Below, one piece after another: positions 30,197 through 52,178 of a stretch of 64,000 nt of DNA. This DNA is from Patescibacteria group bacterium (lineage in GTDB: Bacteria > Patescibacteriota > Microgenomatia > 0-14-0-10-38-17): positions 271,437 through 335,436 of the forward strand of contig JBMNNJ010000001.1 in assembly GCA_050953885.1 (NCBI GenBank), read 5' to 3'. Numbering within the stretch: the stretch's first letter is position 1; each line of letters starts with the position of its first letter. Below the pieces are notes generated by a model that was given only the letters and a program-made list of their open reading frames with translations, was not told the origin of the DNA and searched no databases. The translations under genes were made by a program, and so were the position numbers.

Positions 30197-30233
30197 GCAA
30201 AACTTAAACAGCCTTGGGGAGAAAAATAAAAAA

Positions 30234-30671: not shown

Positions 30672-30673
30672 CC

Positions 30674-30874: not shown

Positions 30875-30982
30875 CTTCCAGGTGTCCCAGGTTCACACCT
30901 GGCATATTTTTCCTCTTTGGTGATAAAACACGACTAAAATATACTCCAGGTGTCAAGCTAAGATACTTTCCAGGTGTACAAA
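30864..30982 (+). repeat. About-130-bp direct repeat, copy C (right boundary of islet)
   Basis: See copy A. Confidence 0.85.
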
Positions 30983-31016
30983 TCCACTGAGAATAAAAAA
31001 ATTAATTGCGATCTTA

Positions 31017-31769: not shown

Positions 31770-32035
31770 TATTCTTTATCTTACCATTATTTCCAAAACA
31801 GCCAAAACAAGCAAGGCTTGCTCGCCATCTCGTTTCTTAAAATCAAAATTTTACCTATAAATTAATTAGGGAAAAAGCCGCAAAATCTCTTTATTTTTCT
31901 CCCGAAACGCTCTAAAGCATTCCAAGATTATTTAAAAATACGGAAATTATCGCCAATTAAATACTACATAGTATTTTAAATAAAAAATTCCTAAGATTAT
32001 GGGCATGATTATTCTTAAAATTAACTAATTTAAAA

Positions 32036-32377
32036 ATGACTTTTAAAAATAAAGTTTACAAACTCGTTAAGAAAATTCCCCGCGGCAAAGTGGCCACTTA
32101 TGGCCAAATCGCCAAGCTGGCCGGCAAACCGGGGGCGGCTCGGGCGGTGGGGGTTTTGTTGAAAAATAACCCCTACATTGGCGTTCCCTGCCATCGGGTG
32201 GTTGGCGCCAAGAGAGAATTAGTTGGCTATTCAAGAGGAGAGGGAATTAAGAGCAAAAAACAAATTCTTAAAAACGAGGGGGTCTTTTTTAAAGGGGGTA
32301 GGGTAGACTTAGAAAAATCGGGCTGGAAACCAAAAAAAATGGAGGAGCGAACTTTCCGCCCGAGGAAAAACAGGTAG
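32036..32377 (+). CDS. MGMT-family protein (Ogt C-terminal DNA-binding/alkyl-acceptor domain only, active-site PCHRV retained)
   Basis: ATYGQIAKLAGKPGAARAVG...PCHRVV is the O6-alkylguanine alkyltransferase HTH and active-site cysteine. Confidence 0.75.
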   Translation: MTFKNKVYKLVKKIPRGKVATYGQIAKLAGKPGAARAVGVLLKNNPYIGVPCHRVVGAKRELVGYSRGEGIKSKKQILKNEGVFFKGGRVDLEKSGWKPKKMEERTFRPRKNR

Positions 32378-32458
32378 TTCGCGCCAAAAAGGAAAGCAGA
32401 GAGTAAAACCGGAAAGTTCAAACACTCACGCTGAAAATATGTTAAAATTGAGGTTGTT

Positions 32459-32535
32459 CGGGGATTAGCGCAGTTGGCTAGCGCGCGTGCTTTGGGAGCA
32501 TGAGGTCGCCGGTTCGAGTCCGGCATCCCCGACCA
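32459..32535 (+). tRNA. tRNA-Pro(TGG)
   Basis: Acceptor CGGGGAT/ATCCCCG. Anticodon loop TTTGGGA. CCA is encoded. Confidence 0.8.
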
Positions 32536-32538
32536 AAA

Positions 32539-32609
32539 GCGGGATTAGTTGATCGGCTCAACGTCAGCTTTCCAAGCTGAAGAGACGGGTTCGACCCCCG
32601 TATCCCGCT
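32539..32609 (+). tRNA. tRNA-Trp(CCA)
   Basis: Acceptor GCGGGAT/ATCCCGC. Anticodon loop TTCCAAG. The D-arm is atypical. The 3' end overlaps the stop codon of the downstream minus-strand gene by 1 nt. Confidence 0.65.
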
Positions 32610-33937
32610 CATTTTTCTTCTAAAACCTGCGCGACCGCTTCAATCAGGGGAGGGTAGGGGAGATAACGATAAAGTTGGTCTTGCCAGTCGGCTTGGCTAA
32701 TGTCCACCACCGGTTCCACTCCATTGCTTTCAATCGGCTGGCCATCATCGCGAAGCGTAAGGCTGTGAACCAAAAATACCGAATATTTTTCTTTTTCGTC
32801 AATCTGTGTTTCTAAAGGAAAAACCTTCTCAATTGTTCCCCAACCGCGCGTTTTTTCTCCTACCAAAATCCCCACATTATATTTTTTTAAAGCCGCCGCC
32901 ATAATTTCCGCCGATGACTGGGTTTGGCCATCAACCAAAATAACCACTTTCTTATAGCGCACTAAAGACGGCAGCCAGCCTACCCGTGTTTGATAATCAA
33001 TCGTTTGCCCCTGATGAAGAAATTGATAAGCATAATTATTCTGCCCGATAAAAGGCCCCAAGAGGTAAGGAAGAACATCCACCGACCCGCCGATATTCCC
33101 CCGTAAATCCAAAATCAGGCTATCAAGCACCTCTCCCTGATCCACTTTTTTGGTAACCCGTTCCAGCTCGGCAAAAGTGGTGGGAGAAATTTTTTCAATC
33201 TGGATATAAAAAACTTCCGGCGTTAAAAGCCGATAGGAAAGAGTCGGCTCCACCCCATAAGTGTCATAAAGCTGACGGCTTTCCTCGTCCCTCAAAACCT
33301 CAAAAGCGTTTTGAATTTGAGCTAATTTTTGGGCGGCTTCCGCTGACGCCTCCACTTGAGGAGAAAGTTGGGCCACTTTCTCCTGATAGACTTTTTTTAT
33401 CTCCTCGGAAGAGGCGTCTTTTTCTACCTCTAAAACCGCATACTGATCCACACTTGGATCGCGATTTTCCACCTTGTCTCTTAATTCCGTTTCTTCTTTT
33501 TGGCTATAAAGACGGCTACGGCCAAAGGGCTCCAAATTGGCCAAAACAATATCTGCCGTTTGTGTTGCCAATTGCTTTTTCTTTTCCTCATCGTCAATCT
33601 GCTCAATAATTTTGCCCATCATTTCCAAAAGCGCCTCTTTATTTTTCTCTTTTAAAGCTTGGGGCTGACCGGTTAATTTTTCCGTGGCCAAAATAAAAAG
33701 AGAGGTAAGCTCTTCGTCGCTTAAGGCCTTCCAGTAATTTTCCTTAATTTTTCCGTAAATTTCGTCAATAAAGGAAACATAAACATTTTGCGTTGCCGAA
33801 TTAACGGCCGGGGAAGGGGATAACCGACCATAATTTTTGAAAATTAAAAAAGCCCCGCAAGAAGCTCCCAGCAAAAAAATTAAGGAAAAAAGGAGTGCTC
33901 GCCAAATTTTCTGGTTTTTCTCCGTCTTGATTTTCAT
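32609..33937 (-). CDS. S41 family C-terminal processing peptidase, membrane anchored, with internal J-like (DnaJ N-terminal-like) domain
   Basis: The C-terminal half has S41 motifs (LILDLRGNIGG, catalytic Ser/Lys region). Residues about 153-217, DQYAVLEVEKDASSEEIKKVYQEKVAQLSPQ...AFEVLRDEESRQLYDTYG, align to the J domain but lack HPD. Confidence 0.75.
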   Translation of the reverse strand: MKIKTEKNQKIWRALLFSLIFLLGASCGAFLIFKNYGRLSPSPAVNSATQNVYVSFIDEIYGKIKENYWKALSDEELTSLFILATEKLTGQPQALKEKNKEALLEMMGKIIEQIDDEEKKKQLATQTADIVLANLEPFGRSRLYSQKEETELRDKVENRDPSVDQYAVLEVEKDASSEEIKKVYQEKVAQLSPQVEASAEAAQKLAQIQNAFEVLRDEESRQLYDTYGVEPTLSYRLLTPEVFYIQIEKISPTTFAELERVTKKVDQGEVLDSLILDLRGNIGGSVDVLPYLLGPFIGQNNYAYQFLHQGQTIDYQTRVGWLPSLVRYKKVVILVDGQTQSSAEIMAAALKKYNVGILVGEKTRGWGTIEKVFPLETQIDEKEKYSVFLVHSLTLRDDGQPIESNGVEPVVDISQADWQDQLYRYLPYPPLIEAVAQVLEEK

Positions 33938-34000
33938 TTCGGCTTTTGTATAATCAAGTATACGGTTTTAAAAAGCAATCTTCAAGGGCTAAAATAAAAA

Positions 34001-35047
34001 ATGACTAAAAGCAAAGTTTACCAAATTCGGTGGCAGGATTACCAAAAAAATCCTCAAATTCTCACCACTATTTTAAACTCCTACCAAAATTATTGGCAGG
34101 AAGAAATTGCCATAAAAACTCATTTTGGCGAACCGGGCAATAAGAACGCCCTGCGGGGAGAATTAATCAAACCGATAGCCAATTGGTTTGTAAAAAATAA
34201 CCTTCAAGCCTTTTTAACCGATGCCAACACTCTTTATCTTGGCAAACGAGCCAATGCCCAAGACCATCTTAAAACCGCAAAAGATCATGGCTTTGCCGAT
34301 CTTGGTTTGCCTATTATCATTGCCGATGGTGAGCGGGGGGAAAAAGAAAAAGAAATTAAATTGAAAGATCTTAAAAACCAATATCAAAACTTGCCCATAA
34401 AAATCGGCGCCAAAATTGCCGAAGCTAAAAGCATTTTTTGCTTAAGCCACTTTAAAGGCCACCCTCTTTTTGGTTTTGGCGGCGCTTTAAAAAATTTAGG
34501 TATGGGTTCGGCCAGCCCAAACGGAAAAAGAATTCTCCATGCCAGCGTTCGCGGCGAAGTTGACAGGGCAAAATGCCTCCTTTGCGGCACCTGTATCAGA
34601 TTTTGCCCTGCCCAGGCAATTAAAATTGAAAATAACCAGATTGTTTTTGACGATCAAAAATGCATTGGCTGCGGTGAATGTATTACTGTTTGCCCCCAAA
34701 AAGCGATTGGAGCCGGCGGGGGAGAAAGCAGAATTTGCCAAGAAAAAACCGCTGTTTACGCCTTAGGGGTGGTAAAAAATAAGCCGCTCCTTTGTTTAAG
34801 CCTTCTTATTAATATTAATCCTCTTTGTGATTGCGCCGGACAAACGGCCAAAAAACTAATTAACGATTTAGGAATTCTGATTTCTCAAGACCCGGTGGCC
34901 ATTGATCAGGCCAGCCTTGACTGGGCCAATCAAGCGGCCGGTAAAGACCTTTTTGCCGAAGTTCATGGCATTGACTATACCCCCATTCTTAAAATGGGTG
35001 AAGAAATCGGCTTAGGAAGACGCGATTATGAAATAAAAAAAGTTTGA
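34001..35047 (+). CDS. DUF362 domain protein with tandem 4Fe-4S ferredoxin motifs
   Basis: Two CxxCxxCxxxCP motifs are present (CLLCGTCIRFCP, CIGCGECITVCP) within a DUF362-like fold. Confidence 0.7.
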   Translation: MTKSKVYQIRWQDYQKNPQILTTILNSYQNYWQEEIAIKTHFGEPGNKNALRGELIKPIANWFVKNNLQAFLTDANTLYLGKRANAQDHLKTAKDHGFADLGLPIIIADGERGEKEKEIKLKDLKNQYQNLPIKIGAKIAEAKSIFCLSHFKGHPLFGFGGALKNLGMGSASPNGKRILHASVRGEVDRAKCLLCGTCIRFCPAQAIKIENNQIVFDDQKCIGCGECITVCPQKAIGAGGGESRICQEKTAVYALGVVKNKPLLCLSLLININPLCDCAGQTAKKLINDLGILISQDPVAIDQASLDWANQAAGKDLFAEVHGIDYTPILKMGEEIGLGRRDYEIKKV

Positions 35048-35141
35048 TCTTCTTATTTGTATTTATCCCCTTTGTTTGGTAAAATTAGGCTGGCGTTGGG
35101 GCTAAGTGGCGGTTTTTTTTGCTCTTTGAAATTTATTTTTG

Positions 35142-35215
35142 GTCCCCGTAGCTTAGTTGGACAGAGCAACTCCCTTCTAAGGAGTAGGTTGTGAGTTCGA
35201 ATCTCACCGGGGACA
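35142..35215 (+). tRNA. tRNA-Arg(TCT)
   Basis: Acceptor GTCCCCG/CGGGGAC. Anticodon loop CTTCTAA. Confidence 0.8.
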
Positions 35216-35461
35216 CAAATTAGTCATTTGGCTAAATCGTATTTAGTATTAAGTATTAAGTCTGACTAGGATATAATTCGTCATGATGAATTCAATTCAG
35301 CATCTTTATGTAATGTTTTAGATTCTGACTTTCGTCAGAATGACGTTTCCGACAAATTAACGGTTTAACAATATAGTGTATTGTATTTTTACCCCTATCA
35401 TATATAATACAAGAGACAAAATACTAATTTTCATTTTTAACTTTTAAATTTTAACTGTTTT

Positions 35462-35516
35462 GCACCCGTAGCTCAGTTGGCAGATCCGCCAACTGGCGGA
35501 CTTTTAAGCAGTGAGC
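35462..35516 (+). pseudogene. Degenerate tRNA-Lys(TTT) fragment (5' half only; palindrome CCGCCAACTGGCGG replaces 5' anticodon stem; no T-arm)
   Basis: GCACCCGTAGCTCAGTTGGCAGA + TCCGCCAACTGGCGGA + CTTTTAAGCAGTG copies the 5' part of the tRNA-Lys 100 bp downstream. The T-arm and the 3' acceptor are missing. Confidence 0.6.
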
Positions 35517-35561
35517 ATTATAAAATAAACAGTAATTCATTAATTAAATAAGCGATTATTC

Positions 35562-35634
35562 GCGCCCGTAGCTCAGCTGGCAGAGCACCTGCCTTTTAAG
35601 CAGTGGGTCGGGAGTCCGAGTCTCCCCGGGCGCA
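35562..35634 (+). tRNA. tRNA-Lys(TTT)
   Basis: Acceptor GCGCCCG/CGGGCGC. Anticodon loop CTTTTAA. T-arm GGGAG-TCCGAGT-CTCCC. Confidence 0.85.
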
Positions 35635-35825
35635 CTAATCAACTGTATTTTGTATTCAGTATTAAGTATTCTGTATCAAAAAGATTCTGACTTTCGTCAG
35701 AATGACGTTTCCGACAAATTAACGGTTTAACAATATAGTGTATTGTATTTTTACCCCTATCATACGCAATACAAGATACCAGAGACAAAATACTAATTTT
35801 GATTTTTACTTTTAACTTTCTCTTC

Positions 35826-35901
35826 GCACCCATAGCTCAGTTGGCAGAGCATCCGCCTCTTAAGCGGCAGGTCGAGAGTTCGAATCTCTCTGGGTGCACC
35901 A
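35826..35901 (+). tRNA. tRNA-Lys(CTT)
   Basis: Acceptor GCACCCA/TGGGTGC. Anticodon loop CTCTTAA. CCA is encoded. Confidence 0.85.
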
Positions 35902-36026
35902 AAAGTTAGTAACTCGTAACCGGTAACTCGTAATTATTAAATAATCTACCGCAAGAGGGAAAAATCACCCTCCCTTTAAATAATTGAGTATTACAAGTTA
36001 CGGATTACAAGTTACCAACAATTTAA

Positions 36027-36113
36027 GGAGAGGTGCGAGAGCGGTTTAATCGGCACGCCTGGAGAGCGTGTGTGGCCGTAAGGTTACCGAGGGTTCGAAT
36101 CCCTCCCTCTCCG
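36027..36113 (+). tRNA. tRNA-Ser(GGA)
   Basis: Acceptor GGAGAGG/CCTCTCC. Anticodon loop CTGGAGA. Long variable arm. Discriminator G. Confidence 0.85.
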
Positions 36114-36132
36114 CTAATTTTAAAAAACAACG

Positions 36133-36219
36133 GGAGAGGTGCCAGAGTGGTTAAATGGGCCGGTCTTGAAAACCGGAGTATCCGCAAGGGTACCGCGAGT
36201 TCGAATCTCGCCCTCTCCG
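36133..36219 (+). tRNA. tRNA-Ser(TGA)
   Basis: Acceptor GGAGAGG/CCTCTCC. Anticodon loop CTTGAAA. Long variable arm. Confidence 0.85.
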
Positions 36220-36283
36220 CCCATTCTTCTTAGAATAAATTTCTGTTAGAAAGAACCAAAAATGATATAATTTACAAAGTTAC

Positions 36284-36357
36284 GGTGGCTATAGCTCAAT
36301 GGTTAGAGCGCTTGCCTGTGGAGCAAGATGTTGCCGGTTCGAGCCCGGTTAGCCACC
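36284..36357 (+). tRNA. tRNA-His(GTG) with encoded G-1
   Basis: An extra 5' G precedes the acceptor GTGGCTA/TAGCCAC. Discriminator C. Anticodon loop CTGTGGA. Confidence 0.8.
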
Positions 36358-36425
36358 CATTAATATTATTATTAAATAATTTTCCCTCTTGCTAAAAAAA
36401 ATTGTTTGTGCTAATTTATTAAAAT

Positions 36426-42715: not shown

Positions 42716-42788
42716 GCTCCCGTAGCTCAACGGATAGAGCGACTGTCTTCGGAACAGTAGGTTGGAGGTTCAAGTCCTCTCGGGGGCA
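42716..42788 (+). tRNA. tRNA-Arg(TCG)
   Basis: Acceptor GCTCCCG/CGGGGGC. Anticodon loop CTTCGGA. Confidence 0.8.
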
Positions 42789-42796
42789 CAAAAACT

Positions 42797-44032
42797 TTAT
42801 AAATATCTTTTCCCCTGGAGCTTCTTGGGCAGTAATGACTTATTTTTAGGATATTTTTCGTATCCCCGGCCATAGCCTAATTCTTTCATTAGTTTTGTTG
42901 GCGCGTTGCGCAATTCCAAAGGGATAGGCAAATTGCCATATTTCCTCACGTCCTCCAAGGCTTTCATATAAGCATTATAAGCGGAGCGATCTTTTTTGGC
43001 CAAAGACAGGTAAACCGCCCCATGGGCTAAGTTTTCCTGGCATTCCGGGTAACCGATCGTCTGGCAGGCCTGAAAAACAGCATTAGCCACCACCAAGGCC
43101 GTGGGTTGGGCCAAACCAATATCCTCGGAAGCAAAAACAACCATGCGCCGGGCGATAAATAAAGGATCCTCGCCGGCCTCAACCATCCGCGCTAAATAAT
43201 ACAAAGCCGCATCAGGATCCGAGGCGCGCATCGACTTAATAAAAGCCGAAATCGTATTGTAATGCTCCTCGCCAACCCGATCATAGAATAAAGAACTCTT
43301 TTGTGCCGCCTCTTCAATATATTGAAGAGGAATAATATTATTTAATGAACTACTATTTTTTGCTTTATCATATAATGTATAGGCAATTTCTAAAATATTC
43401 AGCGCTTGACGGGCATCGCCATACGCCGCTTCTAAAAGAAAATCACGGGTTTTTTCCTCAAGCTTTACCCCTAACTCTTTTAAACCCCGGTCAACAATCG
43501 TCGCTAATTCTTCCCGACTTAGAGGATTTAAAACTAAAACCCGACAGCGGGAAAGAAGGGGAGAAATAACCTCAAAAGAGGGATTTTCCGTGGTAGCTCC
43601 AATTAAGGTAATTGTCCCGTCTTCAACAAAAGGAAGAAAAGCGTCTTGTTGAGCTTTATTAAAACGATGAATTTCGTCAATAAAGAGAATGGTGCGCTTA
43701 GTCCTCTTTTCTTTTTTAAAAGAAAGCTGTTGGCTTGCTTTGATGTTTTCTCTCGCTTTCTCAATAACTTTTCGCACGTCGGCCACTTTTGCCGAAACAG
43801 CGGAATACTCAATAAAATTAGCATCGGTTGCTTCCGCAATTAAACGAGCCAAAGTAGTTTTACCGCAGCCCGGAGGACCCCAAAGAATTAAAGAAAAAAG
43901 CTGGTCCGCCTCAATCATTTGGCGTAAAATTTTTCCTTCTCCCACTAAATGTTCTTGACCTACAAATTCATTTAGATTTTTCGGTCTAATCCGTTCCGCC
44001 AAAGGAGGAAAACCGGCGGCTATTTTATCCAT
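42797..44032 (-). CDS. rarA: Replication-associated recombination protein A (AAA+ ATPase, MgsA/WRNIP1 family)
   Basis: ERIRPKNLNEFVGQEHL...LILWGPPGCGKTTLARLIA, then the MgsA C-terminal domains. Confidence 0.9.
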   Translation of the reverse strand: MDKIAAGFPPLAERIRPKNLNEFVGQEHLVGEGKILRQMIEADQLFSLILWGPPGCGKTTLARLIAEATDANFIEYSAVSAKVADVRKVIEKARENIKASQQLSFKKEKRTKRTILFIDEIHRFNKAQQDAFLPFVEDGTITLIGATTENPSFEVISPLLSRCRVLVLNPLSREELATIVDRGLKELGVKLEEKTRDFLLEAAYGDARQALNILEIAYTLYDKAKNSSSLNNIIPLQYIEEAAQKSSLFYDRVGEEHYNTISAFIKSMRASDPDAALYYLARMVEAGEDPLFIARRMVVFASEDIGLAQPTALVVANAVFQACQTIGYPECQENLAHGAVYLSLAKKDRSAYNAYMKALEDVRKYGNLPIPLELRNAPTKLMKELGYGRGYEKYPKNKSLLPKKLQGKRYL

Positions 44033-44236
44033 ACTTATATTTTACTACGATCATTCCATCATCCCTCTTGACAAAACTATAAGGTTATGATAGTATACAA
44101 AATAGATCCTGGGGTTGCCTTAGTTTAAGGTTGACTCTGGGATTTTTTTATGGGATAAAATAAAGCCGTTTTTACCCCTTTGGCCTTTCTGCTAATCTTC
44201 TAAGAGGTATGCTAAAATGATAAAAATCTTATCTTG

Positions 44237-44318
44237 GCCGAAGTGGCGGAATCGGCAGACGCGCACGGTTTAGGACCGTGTGGGGCAACCCGTGGAGGTT
44301 CAACTCCTCTCTTCGGCA
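44237..44318 (+). tRNA. tRNA-Leu(TAG)
   Basis: Acceptor GCCGAAG/CTTCGGC. Anticodon loop TTTAGGA. Long variable arm. Confidence 0.85.
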
Positions 44319-44341
44319 CTTGTTTATTTTCTCACCCAAAA

Positions 44342-45298
44342 ATGGTAAACTTTCGTTCAATGGTTATTTTCAACAACAAACAAAAAGGAATGCTCCTCCT
44401 GCTACTGGCGCTCTTTTTAAGCTTTCTGACAAAACCGGCGGAAGCGCTTTCTCCTGCTGCTAATCTTAGCCAAATAGAAGAGGCCACCGCTTCTCTTGAG
44501 GCAAGCAAAACCGCCGAAGCAAGCGAGGCAGCCGAAAAAGCCAAGGCGGCCGCAAAATTAACGGAAACTACTGAAGAAGTAAAAGGGCGGCTTGAGTCAA
44601 TTCTTGATAAACAGAAATTAGGACCGCTTACAGTTGCCAACTTTATAAAATACGCTATCCGCCAAGCCGCCGAAATGGGGATTCCCCTAAACACCATTGT
44701 TTTAGTTTTCCTCGTCCCTGTGGCGGCCACTCTGATTGCCTTTTTCCGCTATGTGGTTGGTTTTTCCGGCTTTGGTATCTTCACCCCGGTAATGATTTCG
44801 GTGGCTTTCATCGCCACGGGACTTGGCCAAGGCCTTATTTTATTTTTGGTAATTCTTTTTGTCGCAATTTTATTCCGCTTCCTCACCCGTCGCTTAAGGA
44901 TTCATTTCTTGGCGCGGATGTCTCTTTTGCTTCTCTTTATCTCTTGGGGTGTCTTTGGCTTATTCTACTTTGGTCCTAAAGCAGGTTTTGATCAAGTAGC
45001 CGATATTTCTATCTTCCCCATTTTAATCATGATTCTTTTGGTAGAAAACTTTATGGAAATTCTTATTGGTAAAAGCCGTCGTGAGGCCTTCCAGATGACA
45101 TGGCAAACTCTGCTGGTGGCCATTGTTGGTTATTACCTTTTCAACTGGAGTTGGCTTCAGGAACAGGTTTTGCTTCATCCGGAACCAATTTTTTTGTTGG
45201 TCATTCTTTCTAACCTTTTTTTAGGCCGTTACACAAAACTACGCCTGTCAGAATATCCCCGCTTTTGGCCGATCATCAAAAGTAAAAAACCATCATGA
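44342..45298 (+). CDS. 7TM membrane protein of the 7TM_transglut-type (here without transglutaminase domain), signal peptide plus 7 TM
   Basis: The start was moved to ATG 44342, because the ORF-track N-terminus overlaps tRNA-Leu. It has a signal-like leader, an Ala/Glu-rich linker, then 7 hydrophobic helices. The gene context is that of the ATP-grasp/retropepsin systems. Confidence 0.55.
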
Positions 45299-46581
45299 GC
45301 CGTTGGAACGATGTCTTGGGCAAAAACGCCCGTAACAACCGCTACCTTCGCTTAAATACTAAAAAGGGGCGACAAATTGCCGACTCTAAACTTAAAACTA
45401 AAAAAATTTTGCGCCGTTATCAACTGCCTGTCCCGGACCTGATTAAAACTTTTTCTAAACCCGCCACTATTACCAACTTTTCCTGGGAAAATTTACCGGA
45501 AAGTTTTGTTTTAAAACCGTCTCAAGGCTTCGGGGGAGGGGGCATTTTGGTTATTAGAAGAAAAGGGCGCTGGGCAGGAGAATGGGAATTAATGAATGGA
45601 AAAACCGTTGACATCGCCGCCTTACGCTTTCATGCTTTGGAAATTCTTGGGGGCCGCTTCAGCCTTCATAGTTCCCCTGACCAAGCTTTTATTGAAGAAC
45701 GGGTTAAGATTGTCAAAGCTTTTAGTAAATATGCCTATCAGGGCACACCCGATATTCGCGTTATCGTTTTTAACCATGTTCCGGTGATGGCCATGCTGCG
45801 GCTTCCCACCGCCGAATCTGAAGGCAAGGCCAATCTTCATCAGGGAGCGATTGGCGTCGGCATTGATCTAGCTACCGGCATTACCACCCAAGGAGTTTAT
45901 CGCAACCGGCCAATAAAATATGTCCCGGGCACAAAAAGAAAACTTAACGGTCTGAAAATTCCTTATTGGGAGGAAATTCTTCTTTACGCGGTCCGCACCC
46001 AAGAGCAGATTCCTTCTTTGGGTTATTTGGGGATTGATTTTGTTATTTCCAAAAGCAAGGGGCCGCTTATTTTAGAGCTTAATGCCCGCCCGGGTCTTTC
46101 TATCCAAATTTGCAACCAGACCGGTCTTTTAAAAAGATTGGAAAGGGTAGAACGCTTAGAAATTAGAAACGCCGAGCACGGCGTCAGGGTGGCCAAAGCT
46201 CTCTTTGGCGAGAAATTTACCGAAAAAGTAAGCAGCAAGGAAATAACTCCTGTTTTGGGAATTATTGAAGAAGTGGAAATTAAAAATAAAGAAGGGAAAA
46301 AGGTTAAGGTTTTAGCCAAAATTGATACCGGTGCCAGTCGCAGCTCCATTGATGAAGAGCTGGCGAAAAATTTAGGCTTATTGGAAAAAAACAAGATTGT
46401 TTCCTCCAAGAAATATAAAAGCAGCCTTGGCGCCCACCAGGAAAGGCCGTTAATACCCCTCACCTTTTTCCTGCGAGGACGAAAAATTGAAACGCTAGTA
46501 AATGTTTCCAACCGAAGCCACCTGCAAACTAAATTCTTGGTAGGCGCGCCCGACTTGCGGGGATTTTTGATCAAGCCGTGA
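45295..46581 (+). CDS. ATP-grasp enzyme (sugar-transfer-associated/RimK-related type) fused to C-terminal retropepsin-like aspartyl protease domain
   Basis: ATP-grasp core (FVLKPSQGFGGGGILVI; IDFVISKSKGPLILELNARPG). The C-terminal 130 aa carry KIDTGASRSSID, the D-T/S-G-A retropepsin signature of the RimB/Zn_protease family. Confidence 0.7.
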   Translation: MSRWNDVLGKNARNNRYLRLNTKKGRQIADSKLKTKKILRRYQLPVPDLIKTFSKPATITNFSWENLPESFVLKPSQGFGGGGILVIRRKGRWAGEWELMNGKTVDIAALRFHALEILGGRFSLHSSPDQAFIEERVKIVKAFSKYAYQGTPDIRVIVFNHVPVMAMLRLPTAESEGKANLHQGAIGVGIDLATGITTQGVYRNRPIKYVPGTKRKLNGLKIPYWEEILLYAVRTQEQIPSLGYLGIDFVISKSKGPLILELNARPGLSIQICNQTGLLKRLERVERLEIRNAEHGVRVAKALFGEKFTEKVSSKEITPVLGIIEEVEIKNKEGKKVKVLAKIDTGASRSSIDEELAKNLGLLEKNKIVSSKKYKSSLGAHQERPLIPLTFFLRGRKIETLVNVSNRSHLQTKFLVGAPDLRGFLIKP

Positions 46582-46650
46582 GAGACGAGAAAAATGCAAA
46601 TAACTTGTAATGCGTAATAAGCAAACGCAAAAAACAAAGCCTAAATAAAA

Positions 46651-46800
46651 ATTCAAAGACAATAAATAAACTCAAATCTCAAATGTCAAAACTCAAAACT
46701 ACAACTCAAAACTCAAATCTAAAAAACAACTTTAAGTTTTAAAAAGTTTTAACATTTGCCATGTAGTTTTGCCATTTGACATTTGCGTTTTGAGTTTATT
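46651..46800 (-). repeat. MITE-like intergenic repeat, copy 4 (reverse orientation)
   Basis: See copy 1. It begins with the same ATTCAAAGACAATAAATAAACTCAA terminus as copy 1. Confidence 0.8.
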
Positions 46801-46848
46801 TTTCGTGTCTATTCGTTTTTAATTCGTGTCAATTCGTGTTTTCAAAAT

Positions 46849-47739
46849 ATGAAAAAAACCATCGCTATTTTTAGTAGCAATCCCCATGCCTACGCGCCGC
46901 ACCGGTTTGCCGAAGAGGCAAGAAAAAAAGGTTTTTCTGCCGCTACTTTTGGCTACCAAGAGGTTGATCTTTATTTTACCTCAAAAGGAGAAAGAAAAAT
47001 CTTCTTGAAAGAAAAAAAAATAACAGAACCGTTTTTGGGGGCAATTTTTCGCTCCTCAAGAAACCCTCACCATATTTTTACCCCCCAGCGCGATTGTCTT
47101 CTAAATTTTTTTCTTCAACAAAAAACCATCGTCTTAAATCAAACTATTTATCAAAAGTGGCCCATCTTGGACAAAATTACCGAACATCTTGTTCTTTCTC
47201 AAAATAAGCTCCCCCTCGCCGCCTCTTGGATTTTTGGTTCTTCCCCAAAACTTAAAGAAAAAATAAAATTGCCGGCGGTTTTAAAATTTTATTTAGGCAG
47301 CCATGGCTCGCGAGTATTTAAGGTAAGAAATTCTCACGAGCTTAAAAAAATTTTAGCTTATTTCCCCGCTGAAAACCTCCTTGTTCAGGAAATCCTGCCC
47401 GAAGGCGAAGATTTACGGGTAATTGTTCTTGGCGGAAAAGCCTTAGGGGCAATGAAAAAAAAGGCCGCGCCGGGAAAATTTGTTACCAACTATTCTGCCG
47501 GCGGTAGCGTCAGTCCCTATAGTCTTAACAGCGATCAGTCAGCCAAGGTTTTAGCCGAAAAAACCGCCAAAATTTTTAAAGCTGATTTTTGCGGCGTTGA
47601 TTTAATGAAAGACACCCAGGGAGAATGGCGAGTTTTGGAGGTAAACACCGACTGCCAATTTGAAGGTTTTGAAAAAGCCACCGGCATCAACGTTGCCCAA
47701 AAAGTTATTGAGTTTTTGATTAAGCAAAAAACGTGGTAA
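46849..47739 (+). CDS. rimK: RimK-family alpha-L-glutamate ligase (ATP-grasp)
   Basis: RimK pre-ATP-grasp and ATP-grasp motifs (LRVIVLGGKALGAMKKKA; FCGVDLM; LEVN). The start is at ATG 46849. Confidence 0.8.
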   Translation: MKKTIAIFSSNPHAYAPHRFAEEARKKGFSAATFGYQEVDLYFTSKGERKIFLKEKKITEPFLGAIFRSSRNPHHIFTPQRDCLLNFFLQQKTIVLNQTIYQKWPILDKITEHLVLSQNKLPLAASWIFGSSPKLKEKIKLPAVLKFYLGSHGSRVFKVRNSHELKKILAYFPAENLLVQEILPEGEDLRVIVLGGKALGAMKKKAAPGKFVTNYSAGGSVSPYSLNSDQSAKVLAEKTAKIFKADFCGVDLMKDTQGEWRVLEVNTDCQFEGFEKATGINVAQKVIEFLIKQKTW

Positions 47740-47751
47740 AATGAAAGTCTG

Positions 47752-48792
47752 GTGAAGAAAAAACTCATTATTCTCTCCATTATTGCCTTTTCTCTTTTAG
47801 CGGCGGCGCTTGTTTTCCGCTCCCCAATTGGGGCCCAAGAAATTGCCACCGGGAGAGTAGAGCGGAAAAATTTAACCGAAAAATTAACCGTTTCCGGCGA
47901 GGTTAATGCCGAGGAAAAAGCCTCCTTGAAATTCCAAACCAGTGGCCTTTTATCGTGGGTAGGCGTTAAAGAAGGCGATTGGGTAAAAAAAGGTCAGGCA
48001 ATTGCTTCCCTGGATCAGCGGGAATTAAAAAAACGGCTGGAAAAAGAACTTAATGATTATATGACCGTCCGCTGGGATTTTGAGCAAACCCACGAGGACT
48101 ATAAAGACTACAAAGACCGCTATCTTTTAACCGACGAGATGAAACGAATTTTAGAAAAAGCTCAATTTGGCTTAAGCAATGCCGTTATTGACGTTGAGCT
48201 AGCGGATTTAGCGATAAAATACGCCACTATCACCACTCCCATTACGGGATTGGTCACCCATATTGACACCCCCTTGGCGGGAATAAATATCACCCCGGCC
48301 ACAGCCACTTTTGAAATTGTTAACCCGGACTCGGTTTATTTTGAAGCCCGCATCGATGAGCTGGAAATCGGCAAAATAAAAGAAGGGCAAACGGCAATTA
48401 TTACCTTAGACTCTTATCCGGAAAAAACTTTTGCAGGGGAAATTACCGCCATTGACTTTGCCGCCTCAACGGTTGGGGGCAGTAAAGTTTTCTTAACCAA
48501 AATCTCCCTCCCCGCAAATTCCGACCGGCAATTTCGTCTTGGCATGGGAGGAGATGCGGAAATTATCCTAAACGAAAAAGAAAATGTCTTGGTTGTTCCC
48601 GCCGAAGTTCTTGTTAGGCGAGAAAAAAATTTCGTTTGGGTGGTTGATAACGAAGGGAAAGCAAGGAGAAAAGAGATAGAGGTAGGGCTGGAGACCGATG
48701 AAGAAGTAGAAATCGTGGGCGGCCTCGAAGAAGGAACAGAAATTATCACTAAAGGAATAACCGGTCTTAAAGAAGGCCAAAAAATCCGTTAA
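47752..48792 (+). CDS. Efflux transporter periplasmic adaptor subunit (HlyD/MacA family)
   Basis: GTG start. N-terminal anchor, biotin-lipoyl-like hairpins, and a coiled coil, typical of membrane-fusion proteins. It precedes the MacB-like ABC pair. Confidence 0.8.
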   Translation: MKKKLIILSIIAFSLLAAALVFRSPIGAQEIATGRVERKNLTEKLTVSGEVNAEEKASLKFQTSGLLSWVGVKEGDWVKKGQAIASLDQRELKKRLEKELNDYMTVRWDFEQTHEDYKDYKDRYLLTDEMKRILEKAQFGLSNAVIDVELADLAIKYATITTPITGLVTHIDTPLAGINITPATATFEIVNPDSVYFEARIDELEIGKIKEGQTAIITLDSYPEKTFAGEITAIDFAASTVGGSKVFLTKISLPANSDRQFRLGMGGDAEIILNEKENVLVVPAEVLVRREKNFVWVVDNEGKARRKEIEVGLETDEEVEIVGGLEEGTEIITKGITGLKEGQKIR

Positions 48793-48804
48793 TTTTCCCC
48801 TTTT

Positions 48805-49497
48805 ATGGCTTCCCTTCTCAAATTGGAGCAGGTCTCCAAAATTTACCAGATGGACGGAGTAAAAGTAGAAGCGCTTAAAAATATTTCTTTTAAGGTTTGC
48901 AAAGGTGAATTTTTGGTTATTATGGGCCCCTCCGGCTCGGGAAAATCAACCTTAATGCACCTAATCGGCCTACTTGATCGACCAACAGCTGGCCAAATAT
49001 TCTTAAACGGCAAGCCGGTAAGCAAACTTTCTGAAAAAGAGCAGGCGCGTCTGCGTAATAAGGAAATTGGTTTTGTTTTTCAATTTTTTAATCTTCTGGA
49101 ACGCACCTCGGCCCTAGATAATGTTCGCTTACCACTTTTTTATGCTGGCGTAAAACCCCGGGAACAAGAAAAAAGAGCCAAAGAAGCGCTCGAACAAGTT
49201 GGTCTTGGCCATCGGCTAAACCATTATCCTTCCCAACTCTCCGGAGGAGAGCGCCAACGGGTGGCGATTGCCCGCGCTTTAGTTAACAATCCTTCTCTTA
49301 TCTTAGCCGATGAACCGACAGGAAATTTAGATTCGAAATCGGGAAAAGAAATTATGGAGATTATTGCCTCCCTTCACCGCGAGGGGAGAACAGTTATTTT
49401 GATCACCCATGACTCCTCTCTTAACCATTATGGACAAAGACTGATCGTTGTTAAAGACGGCCAAATTATCGAAGAAAAAAACTATGAAGCTGATTGA
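48805..49497 (+). CDS. ABC transporter ATP-binding protein (MacB/LolD-type)
   Basis: Walker [10 protein letters not shown]. Signature [15 protein letters not shown]. Walker B ILADEPT. Confidence 0.9.
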
Positions 49498-50737
49498 TTT
49501 TTTAAAATTAGCCATTAAAAGCCTTTTAGTCAATAAACTGCGGACTTTTTTAACCATGCTGGGCATTATTATCGGCGTTGGCTCGGTGATTATGCTCATG
49601 TCGGTAGGAGCGGGGGTACAAACTTTTGTCAACCAGCAATTTGAACTGATTGGCGCAAATAATATCTTTATTATCCCCGGCCAGATGGGAGAAATGGCAA
49701 TGATGGGTGCAGGAGGAGGCAGTGGCAGCTCATCAACCGGCCAAACCACTTCCCAAGGAGGCTCGCTAGCCACCATGAGCACTTCAAAACTCAAGGAAAA
49801 ACATGTTAAAGGAATAAAGCGATTAAGCAGTGATATTTTAGAAGCAACAGGGACCATCGAAGTGCCCGCGAAAGCCACTTATAAAAACGAGGCTATTTTT
49901 GCTTCTCTTTCGGGGATTGATGAAAATTTTTTCGCCGCCAGTAATTTAGCCGTCCAGGTAGGTCGACCGATTGAGGAAAAAGATATCTTAAACAAAAGAA
50001 AAGTGGCCGTTATTGGCCCGGAGGTAGGCGAAGAACTTTTCCCCGGCATTGACCCTTTAGGAAAAAAAATCATCGTCGCTAATGTTTCTTTTGAGGTGGT
50101 GGGAATAACGGAAAAAAGAGGTACCGGCGGCATCGGCGGTAATATTGACCGGGTGATTTATGTTCCCTTTCCGATCGTCCAGAGCTTGACGGAAAAAGAA
50201 GGCCTACAGGCAATTTTAGTTAAGGTCTCCGATCGGGAAAAAATTCCCCAAATAATCGCTTTAATTAAAGATTATCTTTCTTCCGAACTTGACGAAAACG
50301 AATTTTCAGTTATAGATCAGACCAAAATTTTGGAAACGGTTAACGCGATTTTAACCATCTTAACTTACGCCTTAACCGCCATCGCTGCCATTTCCCTCTT
50401 AGTCGGCGGCGTGGGGATTATGAATATTATGTTTGTTTCCGTGGTTGAACGCACTAAAGAAATTGGCATCAGAAAAGCGGTGGGCGCCACATCGGGGAAC
50501 ATCCGCTCTCAATTTTTAACCGAGGCGGTGATTTTAAGTCTTTTTGGAGGTATTTTAGGAGTTGGTTTTGGGGTTTTGGGGGCCCAAATTGCCAACCGCT
50601 GGCTTACCACTACCGTCACCCCTTCTTCTATTATCCTTTCCCTAGGCGTGTGCTCTCTTATTGGAATTATTTTCGGTGTTGCCCCCGCCGCCCGGGCCGC
50701 CAAACTTGATCCGGTTGAGGCGCTGCGGTACGAGTAA
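49484..50737 (+). CDS. ABC transporter permease (MacB/FtsX-like, MacB_PCD plus FtsX domains)
   Basis: N-terminal TM, a large periplasmic domain, and a C-terminal FtsX-type 3-TM bundle. It overlaps the ATPase gene by 14 nt. Confidence 0.85.
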   Translation: MKLIDFLKLAIKSLLVNKLRTFLTMLGIIIGVGSVIMLMSVGAGVQTFVNQQFELIGANNIFIIPGQMGEMAMMGAGGGSGSSSTGQTTSQGGSLATMSTSKLKEKHVKGIKRLSSDILEATGTIEVPAKATYKNEAIFASLSGIDENFFAASNLAVQVGRPIEEKDILNKRKVAVIGPEVGEELFPGIDPLGKKIIVANVSFEVVGITEKRGTGGIGGNIDRVIYVPFPIVQSLTEKEGLQAILVKVSDREKIPQIIALIKDYLSSELDENEFSVIDQTKILETVNAILTILTYALTAIAAISLLVGGVGIMNIMFVSVVERTKEIGIRKAVGATSGNIRSQFLTEAVILSLFGGILGVGFGVLGAQIANRWLTTTVTPSSIILSLGVCSLIGIIFGVAPAARAAKLDPVEALRYE

Positions 50738-50912: not shown

Positions 50913-51200
50913 ATGAAAAATGAAGAAAGAGGCTATGAACTAACCGTTCTTTTTCCTCTCCAGCTTAAAGAAAAAGATAAAACCCAAGAAGCTCTCAAAA
51001 AGGAAATTGAAAAAGCAGGCATAATAGAAAAAGAAGAAGATTGGGGAGAAAAAAAATTAGCTTATCCGATTAAAAAGAATGAAAGAGGGCATTTTTATTT
51101 CTACGAGCTTCGGACAAGCCCTGAAAAAATTAAAACTCTTGACGGATGGCTAAAATTAAACGAAAATATTCTTCGTTATCTAATTGTTTTAAAAGTTTAA
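50913..51200 (+). CDS. rpsF: 30S ribosomal protein S6
   Basis: YELTVLF...GEKKLAYPIKK...GHFY matches the bS6 family. It belongs to the rpsF-ssb-rpsR cluster. Confidence 0.85.
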   Translation: MKNEERGYELTVLFPLQLKEKDKTQEALKKEIEKAGIIEKEEDWGEKKLAYPIKKNERGHFYFYELRTSPEKIKTLDGWLKLNENILRYLIVLKV

Positions 51201-51213
51201 GGGGGTGAAAAGA

Positions 51214-51708
51214 ATGGCCAGTCGCTCGTTAAACAAAGTCATGCTCATCGGCAATTTAACCCGTGACCCTGAATTGCGCTATACGCCGCAGGGAACGGCC
51301 GTTTGCACCCTTGGTTTGGCCACCAATTATTCTTGGACCACCGAACAGGGTGAAAAAAAAGAAAGCGTCGAATTTCATCGTTTAGTGGCTTGGAATAAAT
51401 TAGCCGAAATTTGTTCCCAATTGCTTTTTAAAGGGAGAAAAATATATGTGGAGGGGAGGCTGCAAACCCGACAATGGGAAGGTCAGGACGGCGCCAGCCG
51501 GCAAACCACAGAAATCGTTATCACTGACATGATTATCTTAGATTCCCGTCGGGAGCAGGAAGAAGGAGGAGAAACCACCGCCGGTGAAGAAAAAACGCCA
51601 ACGGTAATCCCGGAAGAAACTGCCCCAAAAGAAGACGCTAAAGAAAAAGAAAGCAAGGAAAAAAATCCGCCCGAGGAAGAAGTTAAAGCGGAGGATATTC
51701 CTTTCTAA
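51214..51708 (+). CDS. ssb: Single-stranded DNA-binding protein
   Basis: OB-fold NKVMLIGNLTRDPELRYTPQGTAV. The acidic tail ends in DIPF. ATG 51214 is preceded by AGGGGGTG. Confidence 0.9.
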   Translation: MASRSLNKVMLIGNLTRDPELRYTPQGTAVCTLGLATNYSWTTEQGEKKESVEFHRLVAWNKLAEICSQLLFKGRKIYVEGRLQTRQWEGQDGASRQTTEIVITDMIILDSRREQEEGGETTAGEEKTPTVIPEETAPKEDAKEKESKEKNPPEEEVKAEDIPF

Positions 51709-51935
51709 ACCTTACCAAAAAATAAAAAAGGGGGAAAATGTTGTTGGATTTGTAGGGGCGGGGTTTCCCCGCCCGAAATCAAACGGGTCGGAAAACCCGA
51801 CCCCTACAGGGAACAGACATACAAATTTATTACAACCTCCAGCAATGAAACAATGAAACAATGAAACGATACACATTCGTATCCATTCGTTTCTTTTAAC
51901 AATTTAGCAGTTTAACAATTCAACAATTTAACCAT

Positions 51936-52178
51936 ATGAAAAGAAAAATAAAACCGGTTAAGAAAAGAAAAAGCACCAAAAAATGCTTTTTTTGCCAGAA
52001 GAAGAAAGAACCCGATTATAAAAACTGGGAAGAGCTAAAACCATTCTTAAGTGAATGGGCGCGGATTTTGCCCCGCGAGGTAAGCGGCCTTTGCGCTAAA
52101 CACCAGCGCCGGCTAACTCGTGAAATTAAAAAAGCGCGCTTTTTGGCTTTACTTCCTTATGTGAGAAGAGTAGAGTAG
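51936..52178 (+). CDS. rpsR: 30S ribosomal protein S18
   Basis: CFFC...[36 protein letters not shown] matches bS18. Confidence 0.85.

What the first reader, a model, noticed from the sequence alone, without database searches (positions are those of the whole stretch)
44342..47739. 7TM protein + ATP-grasp-retropepsin fusion + RimK ligase: a predicted peptide ligation/processing module
Three co-directional, overlapping or tightly spaced genes encode a signal-peptide 7TM protein, an ATP-grasp enzyme with a C-terminal D-T-G-A retropepsin-like domain, and a RimK-type glutamate ligase. Comparative genomics has predicted this association (ATP-grasp, 7TM/inactive-transglutaminase and retropepsin neighbourhoods; the RimABK-type modules) to build or trim peptide tags or a polyamino-acid at the membrane. 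It remains largely uncharacterised. Here the ATP-grasp and the protease are fused into one polypeptide, and the 7TM protein lacks a transglutaminase domain. A separate transglutaminase-like secreted protein sits 22 kb upstream at 20570-22396. The first gene's annotated start had to be moved because the ORF overlaps tRNA-Leu(TAG).
Basis: partly seen in the sequence, partly recalled or inferred. Interest (0 to 1): 0.6.

Follow-up and report, generated by a model that had tools for sequence, protein, structure and literature searches.

The report
Rlo-like ligase-protease membrane module
A tiny-genome candidate-phyla (CPR) bacterium carries a conserved gene set (a seven-helix membrane protein, a peptide-bond-forming enzyme fused to an HIV-protease-like cutter, and a second ligase) that is a rearranged relative of the recently described Pseudomonas Rlo/Rim poly-glutamate systems; it is real and moderately new, not revolutionary.

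Summary
Three + strand genes lie at 44342-47739. g1 is a signal-peptide protein with a 7TM_transglut domain (Pfam E 3.5e-30) and no transglutaminase domain. g2 is an RloC-type ATP-grasp (PF14397, 2e-67) fused to a C-terminal retropepsin domain. Its DTGA motif is invariant in 50 homologues, and the predicted fold matches only retropepsins, including RloA and RloA2. g3 is a RimK-family ligase.

The organism is a Candidatus Shapirobacteria (CPR/Patescibacteria) relative. The 7TM-plus-fusion pair is adjacent in all 27 related genome loci. One to three further ATP-grasp ligases follow in about 20 of the 24 loci with enough downstream sequence. Some loci add a MATCAP carboxypeptidase.

The closest characterised system is RloABC of Pseudomonas aeruginosa (2025). 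A RimB-RimK hybrid is also known, but with the opposite domain order and a different ligase subfamily.

In this module the protease is cytoplasmic and the inactive transglutaminase is absent. Ribosomal protein S6, encoded 3 kb downstream, has no acidic tail, so S6 glutamylation is unlikely.

Other metagenomic proteins fuse the same protease domain outside a 7TM, or all three parts in one chain. This argues that one substrate is handled on both faces of the membrane, probably a poly-alpha-glutamate-like peptide. I rate it a new variant of a known kind, with moderate interest.

The parts
44237..44319 (+). tRNA-Leu(tag), 23-41 nt upstream of g1. It explains why the long ORF start at 44234 is spurious. 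Possibly co-transcribed with the module from a promoter-like site at 44068-44096.
   Evidence: ARAGORN; Rfam tRNA 54 bits; same tRNA upstream of the module in relative L001; TTGACA-17-TAGTAT site.
44342..45298 (+). g1: RloB-like membrane protein without a transglutaminase domain. It has a signal peptide (aa 1-35), a variable Ala/Glu-rich extracytoplasmic linker, a 7TM_transglut domain (aa ~113-310, nt ~44678-45271), and a conserved basic cytoplasmic tail G-x-Y-x-x-L-R-L-S-E-Y-x-R-F.
   Evidence: Pfam PF14402 E 3.5e-30; NCBIfam RloB positions 294-507 of 508 only. Hydropathy and topology. Invariant residues R136, E235, L300, R301 and E304 in 30 homologues. Homologues of 215-335 aa carry only PF14402.
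45295..46581 (+). g2: RloC-type ATP-grasp ligase (aa 14-286, nt 45334-46152), then a helical segment and a low-confidence linker (aa 307-318), then a retropepsin-like aspartic protease domain (aa ~320-428, nt 46252-46578). The start overlaps the g1 stop (ATGA).
   Evidence: PF14397 2e-67; TIGR02291 276 bits against a cutoff of 314. AF2 model pLDDT 82.8. The ATP-grasp half matches ArgX, RimK and LysX. 120 of the 120 listed hits are 357-456 aa; 118 cover at least 98% of the query and one is marked partial. ATGA overlap.
46324..46335 (+). Catalytic D344-T-G-A347 motif of the retropepsin domain. K342, R384 and R407 correspond by spacing to the poly-Glu-contacting residues K46, R114 and R137 of RloA.
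   Evidence: Translation KIDTGASR. D344, T345, G346, A347, R384 and R407 are invariant in 50 homologues. Alignment to RloA structures 9g58/9g59. Residue roles from PMC12239564.
46659..46806 (.). Long imperfect inverted repeat (62-nt arms, 77% complementary) inside the 267-nt AT-rich g2-g3 spacer. It may be a terminator, attenuator or other regulatory hairpin. Its function is unknown and its sequence is not conserved in the closest relative.
   Evidence: the repeat finder; RNA fold -66 kcal/mol, z -6.7; no Rfam family; the spacer cannot be aligned to L001.
46849..47739 (+). g3: accessory RimK-family ATP-grasp ligase of 296 aa (pre-ATP-grasp plus ATP-grasp domains).
   Evidence: PF08443 2.4e-29; TIGR00768 131.6 bits against a cutoff of 143.4. 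Full-length match to P. aeruginosa RimK 7qyr, E 7e-20. RimK-like genes follow the fusion gene in about 20 of 24 related loci.

Best explanation
This is a Patescibacteria (CPR) variant of the Rlo system: a membrane-associated machine that makes and trims a short anionic peptide polymer, most likely poly/oligo-alpha-L-glutamate.

Shown:
- The three proteins are a 7TM_transglut membrane protein, an RloC-type ATP-grasp ligase fused to a retropepsin, and a RimK-family ligase.
- The first two genes overlap by ATGA and are always adjacent in relatives.

Inferred:
- The cytoplasmic ATP-grasp domain of g2 polymerises glutamate using ATP. g3 helps as a priming or second-specificity ligase.
- The fused retropepsin domain dimerises and cuts the growing acidic chain. 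This would control its length and release it, and perhaps stimulate synthesis, as RimB does for RimK.
- The ligase docks on the conserved cytoplasmic tail of the 7TM protein. The 7TM protein passes the product across the membrane or couples its production to the envelope.

Compared with Pseudomonas RloABC, the protease has moved from the periplasm to the cytoplasmic face, and the periplasmic inactive transglutaminase domain is replaced by a short linker.
For: Component identities rest.

- Protease domain: the domain profile hits the RloA structures 9g59 (4e-7) and 9g58 (1e-5). DTGA and both arginines equivalent to the poly-Glu-binding R114 and R137 of RloA are invariant. The domain has no cysteines, as reported for cytosolic RimB and unlike the disulfide-bonded periplasmic RloA.
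- ATP-grasp domain: the Mg/ATP motif E261-x-N263 is invariant.
- Linkage: the 7TM gene lies immediately upstream of the fusion in 27 of 27 loci. Extra ATP-grasp genes follow in about 20 of 24 loci.
- Rosetta-stone fusions: among the 150 best representatives of this protease domain, 18 are signal-anchor, retropepsin, 7TM. One is retropepsin, 7TM, ATP-grasp in a single chain; its parts match g2 and g1 at E 1e-18, 2e-15 and 5e-42. Some ~800-aa proteins are ATP-grasp, retropepsin, MATCAP.
- Literature: RloA and RimB cleave poly-Glu. RimB stimulates poly-alpha-L-Glu synthesis by RimK. Loss of rloB or rloC suppresses the loss of the RloA proteases.
- S6 has no acidic tail, which removes the classical RimK substrate.
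Against: - No enzymatic activity of RloC or of any 7TM_transglut protein has been reported, so glutamate as the monomer is extrapolated from RimK and from the protease's specificity.
- g2 scores below the NCBIfam trusted cutoff for TIGR02291 (276 against 314).
- A protease fused to the ligase could just as well edit a tagged protein as release a free polymer.
- The 7TM protein has no solved relative and I could not model it, so a transport role is only one option.
- g3 is separated by 267 nt with a strong hairpin and is far more diverged from the closest relative than g2 (69% against 92% identity). It may therefore be regulated or used separately.
- In some relatives the protease motif is degenerate (DLS in L025).
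Confidence: 0.45

Rival explanations
1. A reversible protein-tagging cycle. The ligases add amino acids (Glu or others) to the C-terminus or side chains of an unknown target protein, and the retropepsin (plus MATCAP in relatives) removes them. This would resemble tubulin tyrosination/glutamylation or RimK/RimB acting on S6.
For: A MATCAP-type carboxypeptidase gene follows the fusion in 4 loci and is fused to it in L025 and P0373. RimK/RimB work this way on RpsF. ATP-grasp relatives include TTL (weak PF03133 hit in a neighbouring ligase).
Against: No target is evident. S6 lacks an acidic tail. None of the 62 window ORFs has a run of 6 or more acidic residues or a C-terminal EE. The obligatory 7TM partner, and protease domains placed outside the membrane in related fusions, are hard to fit with a purely cytoplasmic tagging cycle.
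Confidence: 0.2
2. An envelope or cell-wall modification system. The ATP-grasp ligases add amino acids to a lipid-linked or peptidoglycan precursor (Ddl/Mur-like chemistry), and the 7TM protein is the flippase or scaffold.
For: rloA, rloB and rloC mutants show cell-shape and beta-lactam phenotypes. A PBP1A-like gene follows the module in 9 Moranbacteria-type loci. The accessory ligases give weak D-Ala-D-Ala ligase hits.
Against: The PBP adjacency is confined to one lineage and is absent from the window. The protease keeps the poly-Glu-binding arginines. The ligase families are RimK/RloC-type rather than Ddl/Mur-type by score.
Confidence: 0.12
3. g3 is an ordinary stand-alone RimK that modifies ribosomal protein S6 and merely sits next to an unrelated g1-g2 pair.
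For: A 267-nt spacer with a hairpin suggests a separate transcription unit. rpsF lies only 3.2 kb downstream. g3's best PDB sequence match is RimK.
Against: S6 is 95 aa and ends RYLIVLKV, with no Glu-Glu acceptor. RimK-like ligase genes follow the fusion gene in about 20 of 24 loci across Shapirobacteria-, Moranbacteria- and other CPR-type loci. g3 is below the TIGR00768 cutoff.
Confidence: 0.08
4. A graspetide/RiPP pathway. The ATP-grasp would macrocyclise a ribosomal precursor peptide, the protease would remove the leader, and the membrane protein would export the product.
For: The combination of ATP-grasp, protease and membrane protein superficially resembles RiPP clusters. g3 gives weak hits to graspetide maturases (26.8 bits).
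Against: Scores are far below family cutoffs (26.8 against 350). No conserved small ORF exists: the only sizeable intergenic region is not conserved even in the 92%-identical relative. The ligases belong to the RimK/RloC clades.
Confidence: 0.03

Closest known systems
RloABC of Pseudomonas aeruginosa (Lormand et al., mBio 2025, PMC12239564)
   Same: The same three building blocks are encoded together: a 7TM_transglut membrane protein (RloB), a TIGR02291/PF14397 ATP-grasp (RloC), and a PF05618 retropepsin with DTGA (RloA). The protease keeps the basic residues that bind poly-Glu.
   Different: In the window the protease is fused to the C-terminus of the cytoplasmic ligase. It has no signal peptide and no disulfide cysteines, so it is intracellular, whereas RloA is periplasmic. 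The 7TM protein lacks the periplasmic inactive transglutaminase domain. Gene order is B-(C~A) rather than A-B-C. An extra RimK-like ligase is attached. The host is a CPR bacterium, whereas the paper reports RloB as 96% proteobacterial.
RimK-RimB and the RimBK hybrid (Little et al., JBC 2025, PMC11957791)
   Same: A cytoplasmic alpha-L-glutamate ligase works with, and is in some species fused to, a retropepsin that cleaves poly-Glu and stimulates poly-alpha-L-Glu synthesis. g3 is a RimK-family protein.
   Different: RimBK has the protease N-terminal to a RimK-type ligase. The window protein has it C-terminal to an RloC-type ligase, so this is an independent fusion. There is no RimA. S6 lacks the acidic acceptor tail. 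A 7TM partner is obligatory.
ATP-grasp / 7TM-inactive-transglutaminase / aspartyl-peptidase neighbourhoods predicted by Iyer, Abhiman, Burroughs and Aravind, Mol Biosyst 2009 (recalled from memory; the paper could not be opened)
   Same: The same Pfam families (PF14397, PF14402, PF05618) derive from that analysis, which predicted a peptide synthesis and modification role.
   Different: That work predates CPR genomes. I could not check whether it mentions the ligase-protease fusion, the bare 7TM form or the MATCAP association.
TTL/TTLL ligases with MATCAP/vasohibin carboxypeptidases (the eukaryotic tubulin code)
   Same: ATP-grasp ligases are paired with MATCAP-family (PF08014) peptidases in related loci and in triple fusions.
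   Different: The window itself has no MATCAP gene. The system is bacterial and membrane-linked, and its target is unknown.

Membership tests
RloABC system | RloB-type 7TM domain (PF14402) | tested here: met
   E 3.5e-30, 105.8 bits against a cutoff of 25. Aligns to RloB model positions 294-507 of 508.
RloABC system | Periplasmic inactive transglutaminase domain N-terminal to the 7TM | tested here: not met
   Nothing matches RloB model positions 1-293, and the total of 75 bits is far below the cutoff of 900. The N-terminus is a signal peptide plus a low-complexity linker of about 80 aa. CPR homologues carry only PF14402.
RloABC system | RloC-type ATP-grasp (TIGR02291 / PF14397) | tested here: inconclusive
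   PF14397 227.8 bits against a cutoff of 31.4: met. TIGR02291 276.3 bits, below the cutoff of 314.2. It is far above the RimK-family model (45.8 bits). No direct comparison with the P. aeruginosa RloC sequence was possible.
RloABC system | Secreted, stand-alone RloA protease with signal peptide and disulfide | tested here: not met
   The domain is the C-terminal third of a 428-aa cytoplasmic ligase and contains no Cys.
RloABC system | Genes adjacent and co-directional | tested here: met
   ATGA overlap. The 7TM gene lies directly upstream in 27 of 27 loci.
RloABC system | Role in hypo-osmotic tolerance, with ligase or 7TM loss suppressing protease loss | not testable with these tools
   This needs genetics in an uncultivated CPR organism or a heterologous host.
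Retropepsin-like aspartic peptidases (clan AA, PF05618 group) | D-T/S-G-A active-site motif | tested here: met
   D344-T-G-A347, invariant in 50 homologues.
Retropepsin-like aspartic peptidases (clan AA, PF05618 group) | Retropepsin fold | tested here: met
   Domain model pLDDT 87.3. All 50 listed Foldseek PDB hits are retropepsins (E from 7.6e-6 to 4.2e-4, TM 0.50-0.66), including RloA 9g58 and RloA2 9g59.
Retropepsin-like aspartic peptidases (clan AA, PF05618 group) | Family HMM above the curated cutoff | tested here: inconclusive
   PF05618 27.3 bits against a cutoff of 27, which is borderline. The domain profile against PDB sequences gives 9g59 at 4e-7.
Retropepsin-like aspartic peptidases (clan AA, PF05618 group) | Homodimer forming the two-Asp active site | not tested
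   No multimer prediction was available. Tandem-domain relatives (P0257, P0241) suggest pairing.
RimK / RimABK ribosomal S6 glutamylation | RimK-family ligase | tested here: inconclusive
   g3: PF08443 102.7 bits: met. TIGR00768 131.6 bits, below the cutoff of 143.4. The S6-ligase equivalog scores 62 bits against 331.
RimK / RimABK ribosomal S6 glutamylation | S6 with a C-terminal Glu-Glu acceptor tail | tested here: not met
   rpsF at 50913-51200 (PF01250, 8e-21) ends ...RYLIVLKV.
RimBK hybrid | Protease domain N-terminal to a RimK-type ligase | tested here: not met
   The order is ligase then protease, and the ligase is PF14397/TIGR02291-type.
Graspetide (RiPP) ATP-grasp maturases | Family HMM match and an adjacent precursor peptide gene | tested here: not met
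   TIGR04187 26.8 bits against a cutoff of 350. There is no conserved small ORF, and the spacer is not conserved.

The most novel reading that the evidence does not exclude
7TM_transglut proteins are a previously unrecognised class of peptide-polymer translocases. A cytoplasmic RloC-type ligase docks on the conserved GxRLSEYxRF tail and feeds a poly-anionic peptide through the seven-helix bundle. The retropepsin can be placed on either face of the membrane: inside in CPR ligase-protease fusions, outside in Pseudomonas RloA and in Chloroflexota protease-7TM fusions. In either position it sets chain length. In CPR bacteria, which lack most biosynthesis, this would be a minimal, ribosome-independent way to decorate or osmotically buffer the envelope.
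Probability: 0.25. Interest if true: 0.7.

Novelty: new variant of a known kind. Interest (0 to 1): 0.45.

Why it matters
The Rlo system matters for stress tolerance, antibiotic resistance and biofilms in Pseudomonas, but its chemistry is unknown.

- **Functional unit.** The natural fusions found here link all three components physically: ligase-protease in CPR, protease-7TM in Chloroflexota, and all three parts in one chain. That is strong comparative evidence that they act as one unit on one substrate, and that the substrate meets the protease on either side of the membrane.
- **Distribution.** The 7TM-plus-ligase core is widespread outside Proteobacteria and works without the transglutaminase domain. 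This revises the published view that the system evolved from rim genes within Gammaproteobacteria.
- **Reagents.** The compact CPR proteins (a 428-aa ligase-protease, and bare 7TM proteins of about 215 aa in relatives) would be convenient for biochemistry and structure determination.

Tried and rejected
- Iyer et al. 2009, the source of the Pfam families, could not be opened. A full-text search for the Pfam and TIGRFAM identifiers found nothing.
- The 7TM profile has no sequence relative in the PDB.
- No PADLOC defence-family hit for any of the three proteins.
- No Rfam family in 43900-48000 other than the tRNA.
- The HlyD/ABC/MacB-FtsX genes start 12 nt after g3 and were considered as the exporter of the module. 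I rejected this because they are syntenic only in the closest relative L001.
- The transglutaminase-like protein at 20570-22396 was considered as a split-off RloB domain. I rejected this because it belongs to a different Pfam family with an apparently intact catalytic triad and lies 22 kb away.
- A search of the window ORFs for poly-acidic or C-terminal EE candidate substrates found nothing convincing.
- A single-sequence PDB search with g2 was uninformative until profiles were used.


Full report
**What is in the sequence**

The region holds three + strand ORFs.

The first mechanical ORF starts at TTG 44234, inside tRNA-Leu(tag) at 44237-44319. ATG 44342 is the first possible start, and homologue alignment favours ATG 44360.

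g1 stops at 45298 and g2 starts at 45295, giving an ATGA overlap.

g2 ends at 46581. The true start of g3 is ATG 46849, where similarity to the closest relative begins. The gap is thus 267 nt, AT-rich, and contains a 62-nt-arm inverted repeat. "Tightly spaced" applies only to g1 and g2.

**Component identities**

*g1.* It matches Pfam 7TM_transglut (E 3.5e-30) and only the C-terminal 7TM half of the NCBIfam RloB model. Hydropathy shows a cleavable signal peptide, an Ala/Glu-rich external linker of about 80 aa, seven helices and a basic cytoplasmic tail. Across 30 homologues the invariant residues include R136, E235 in helix 5, and the tail motif L300-R301-x-x-E304. CPR homologues are either about 300 aa (signal peptide plus linker) or about 215 aa (bare 7TM). 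None has a transglutaminase domain.

*g2.* It matches ATPgrasp_ST (E 2e-67) and TIGR02291 "alpha-L-glutamate ligase-like" (276 bits, just under the cutoff of 314). Over aa 320-428 it gives weak hits to PF05618, RloA1-3, RimB and clan AA models.
- The full-length AF2 model (pLDDT 82.8) has an ATP-grasp body closest to ArgX, RimK and LysX, a low-confidence linker at aa 307-318, and a beta-rich C-terminal domain.
- Modelled alone, that domain has pLDDT 87.3. All 50 of its listed Foldseek PDB matches are retropepsins: ApRick, Ddi1 RVP, foamy-virus, HTLV and HIV proteases, RloA 9g58, RloA2 9g59 and Lpg0085.
- A profile of the domain finds 9g59 and 9g58 by sequence (4e-7 and 1e-5). These are the RloA-family structures of Lormand et al..
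- D344-T-G-A347 is invariant in 50 homologues, as is the ligase Mg/ATP motif E261-x-N263.

*g3.* It is a RimK-family protein: PF08443 2.4e-29, and a full-length match to P. aeruginosa RimK 7qyr at 7e-20. It falls below the TIGR00768 cutoff.

**Organism and conservation**

The closest genome locus is from a Candidatus Shapirobacteria MAG. Its g2 protein is 92% identical, DNA identity is about 80%, and synteny is kept across 14 kb, including the upstream tRNA-Leu.

The fusion architecture is not an assembly artefact:
- The 120 best database proteins are 357-456 aa. 118 cover at least 98% of g2, and one is marked partial.
- 26 genome loci encode it full-length.
- In all 27 CPR-type loci a 7TM gene lies immediately upstream on the same strand.

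Downstream, about 20 of the 24 loci with enough sequence carry one to three more ATP-grasp ligase genes. These are two RimK subtypes and a more divergent type. Four loci insert a MATCAP (PF08014) carboxypeptidase, and one Peribacteria locus fuses ligase, a degenerate protease and MATCAP into a 793-aa protein.

The window's g3 belongs to the "RimK_B" subtype.

The efflux genes that start 12 nt after g3 are syntenic only in the closest relative and are not part of the module.

**Comparison with known systems**

The three domain families are those of the rloABC operon of P. aeruginosa. That operon encodes a secreted retropepsin (RloA), a 7TM protein with an inactive transglutaminase (RloB) and a cytoplasmic ATP-grasp (RloC). 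RloA cleaves runs of 8 or more Glu. The triple protease mutant is sensitive to hypo-osmotic conditions, and deleting rloB or rloC suppresses this.

The related cytoplasmic RimB cleaves poly-Glu and stimulates poly-alpha-L-Glu synthesis by RimK. A natural RimB-RimK hybrid, with the protease N-terminal, is active.

The window differs from both systems:
- The protease is C-terminal to an RloC-type ligase.
- The protease has no signal peptide and no cysteines, like cytosolic RimB and unlike periplasmic RloA.
- The 7TM protein has no transglutaminase domain.

Neither paper mentions this fusion or Patescibacteria. The Rlo paper reports RloB as 96% proteobacterial.

**Evidence bearing on mechanism**

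1. *Poly-Glu-contact residues.* The RloA residues that contact poly-Glu (K46, R114, R137) flank the catalytic D48. Through the alignment to RloA 9g58, whose spacing is identical (D to R = 66 and 89), they map to g2 K342, R384 and R407. The R384-R407 spacing of 23 equals that of R114-R137, and both arginines are invariant. This mapping is an inference from partial alignments.

2. *S6 is not a plausible substrate.* Ribosomal protein S6, encoded 3.2 kb downstream with ssb and rpsR, is a 95-aa core that ends RYLIVLKV. The classical RimK acceptor is therefore absent.

3. *Alternative fusions.* A profile of the protease domain was searched against 1.84 billion representative proteins. It found 1436 relatives, 435 of them at E <= 1e-10. 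Among the best 150:
   - 13 (plus 3 with a second, partial protease match) are ligase then protease.
   - 18 are signal anchor, protease, 7TM (from Herpetosiphonaceae and other Chloroflexota).
   - One has two tandem protease domains before the 7TM.
   - One 657-aa protein is protease, 7TM, ligase in a single chain.
   - Some ~800-aa proteins are ligase, protease, MATCAP.

   The 657-aa protein aligns to the g2 protease domain (43% identity, E 1e-18), the g1 7TM domain (E 2e-15) and the g2 ligase domain (E 5e-42). Its ligase starts about 18 residues after the 7TM tail motif.

   The same protease family is therefore placed outside the membrane in some lineages and inside in others, always tied to the same ligase and 7TM. 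The simplest reading is that one substrate is made by the ligase in the cytoplasm, handled by the 7TM protein, and present on both faces of the membrane.

**Verdict**

The best-supported mechanism is a membrane-docked poly/oligo-alpha-glutamate-type synthase with a built-in chain-cutting retropepsin and an accessory RimK-like ligase (confidence about 0.45).

The rivals are a protein C-terminal tagging cycle, envelope-precursor modification, an independent S6 ligase, and a RiPP pathway. The last two are largely excluded.

This is a new variant of a known kind. It is abundant in CPR metagenomes, annotated only generically, and useful as comparative evidence and as compact material for biochemistry.

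Noticed in passing
window 46582-46848: A 267-nt AT-rich spacer between g2 and g3 has a 62-nt-arm imperfect inverted repeat (46659-46720 / 46745-46806). The RNA fold is -66 kcal/mol (z -6.7) and there is no Rfam match. The sequence is not conserved in the closest relative, whose 414-nt spacer has its own small GC-rich hairpins.
   Followed up: partly
window 50913-52178: An rpsF-ssb-rpsR cluster lies 3.2 kb downstream of the RimK-like gene. S6 is a bare 95-aa core ending RYLIVLKV, without the acidic tail that RimK extends in E. coli and Pseudomonas.
   Followed up: yes
window 20570-22396: A signal-peptide protein has a Transglut_core domain with apparently intact Cys (ICTEF), His (HAWPEYW) and Asp (DPT), plus a C-terminal membrane anchor. 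It is probably an active secreted transglutaminase or protease-like enzyme and is unrelated to the module.
   Followed up: partly
window 25592-36358, 42716-42789, 44237-44319: There are 17 tRNA genes in 64 kb, mostly in three tight clusters. tRNA-Leu(tag) sits 23 nt upstream of the first possible g1 start, and a promoter-like TTGACA-17-TAGTAT site lies at 44068-44096. The tRNA and the module may share a transcript.
   Followed up: partly
P0121 (database protein, 354 aa) versus window 44234-45298: A public gene call for the 96%-identical homologue (P0121, 354 aa) has the same length as the window's long ORF that runs through the tRNA-Leu gene. This looks like a recurring start-site annotation error.
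   Followed up: no
L018, L020, L023, L026 (gene after the fusion); L025 5944-8325; P0373: MATCAP/DUF1704-type metallocarboxypeptidases (PF08014) are encoded next to the ligase-protease or fused to it. In L025 the protease motif has degenerated to DLS, and the 7TM protein carries an N-terminal PKD domain.
   Followed up: partly
L008, L010-L012, L015-L017, L019, L021: In Moranbacteria-type loci a PBP1A-like gene of about 850 aa (transglycosylase/transpeptidase, judged from its sequence only) follows the module. In most of them a conserved gene of about 165 aa (RuvC-like by inspection; no family scan was run) precedes the 7TM gene. This may be lineage synteny or a hint of a cell-wall link.
   Followed up: no
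P0304 (539 aa): A class I lysyl-tRNA synthetase carries a C-terminal copy of the same retropepsin-like domain (aa ~398-510). This is an unexpected architecture.
   Followed up: no
L003, L004, L007, L011-L013, L015-L017, L020, L021, L024, L027: Several MAG records titled 'uncultured Gammaproteobacteria', 'Bdellovibrionales' or 'Pseudomonadales' carry loci whose gene content and similarity match Patescibacteria relatives. The record taxonomy labels are probably unreliable.
   Followed up: no
window 47752-50737: HlyD-family adaptor, ABC ATPase and MacB/FtsX permease genes start 12 nt after the g3 stop. This arrangement is shared only with the closest relative L001.
   Followed up: yes
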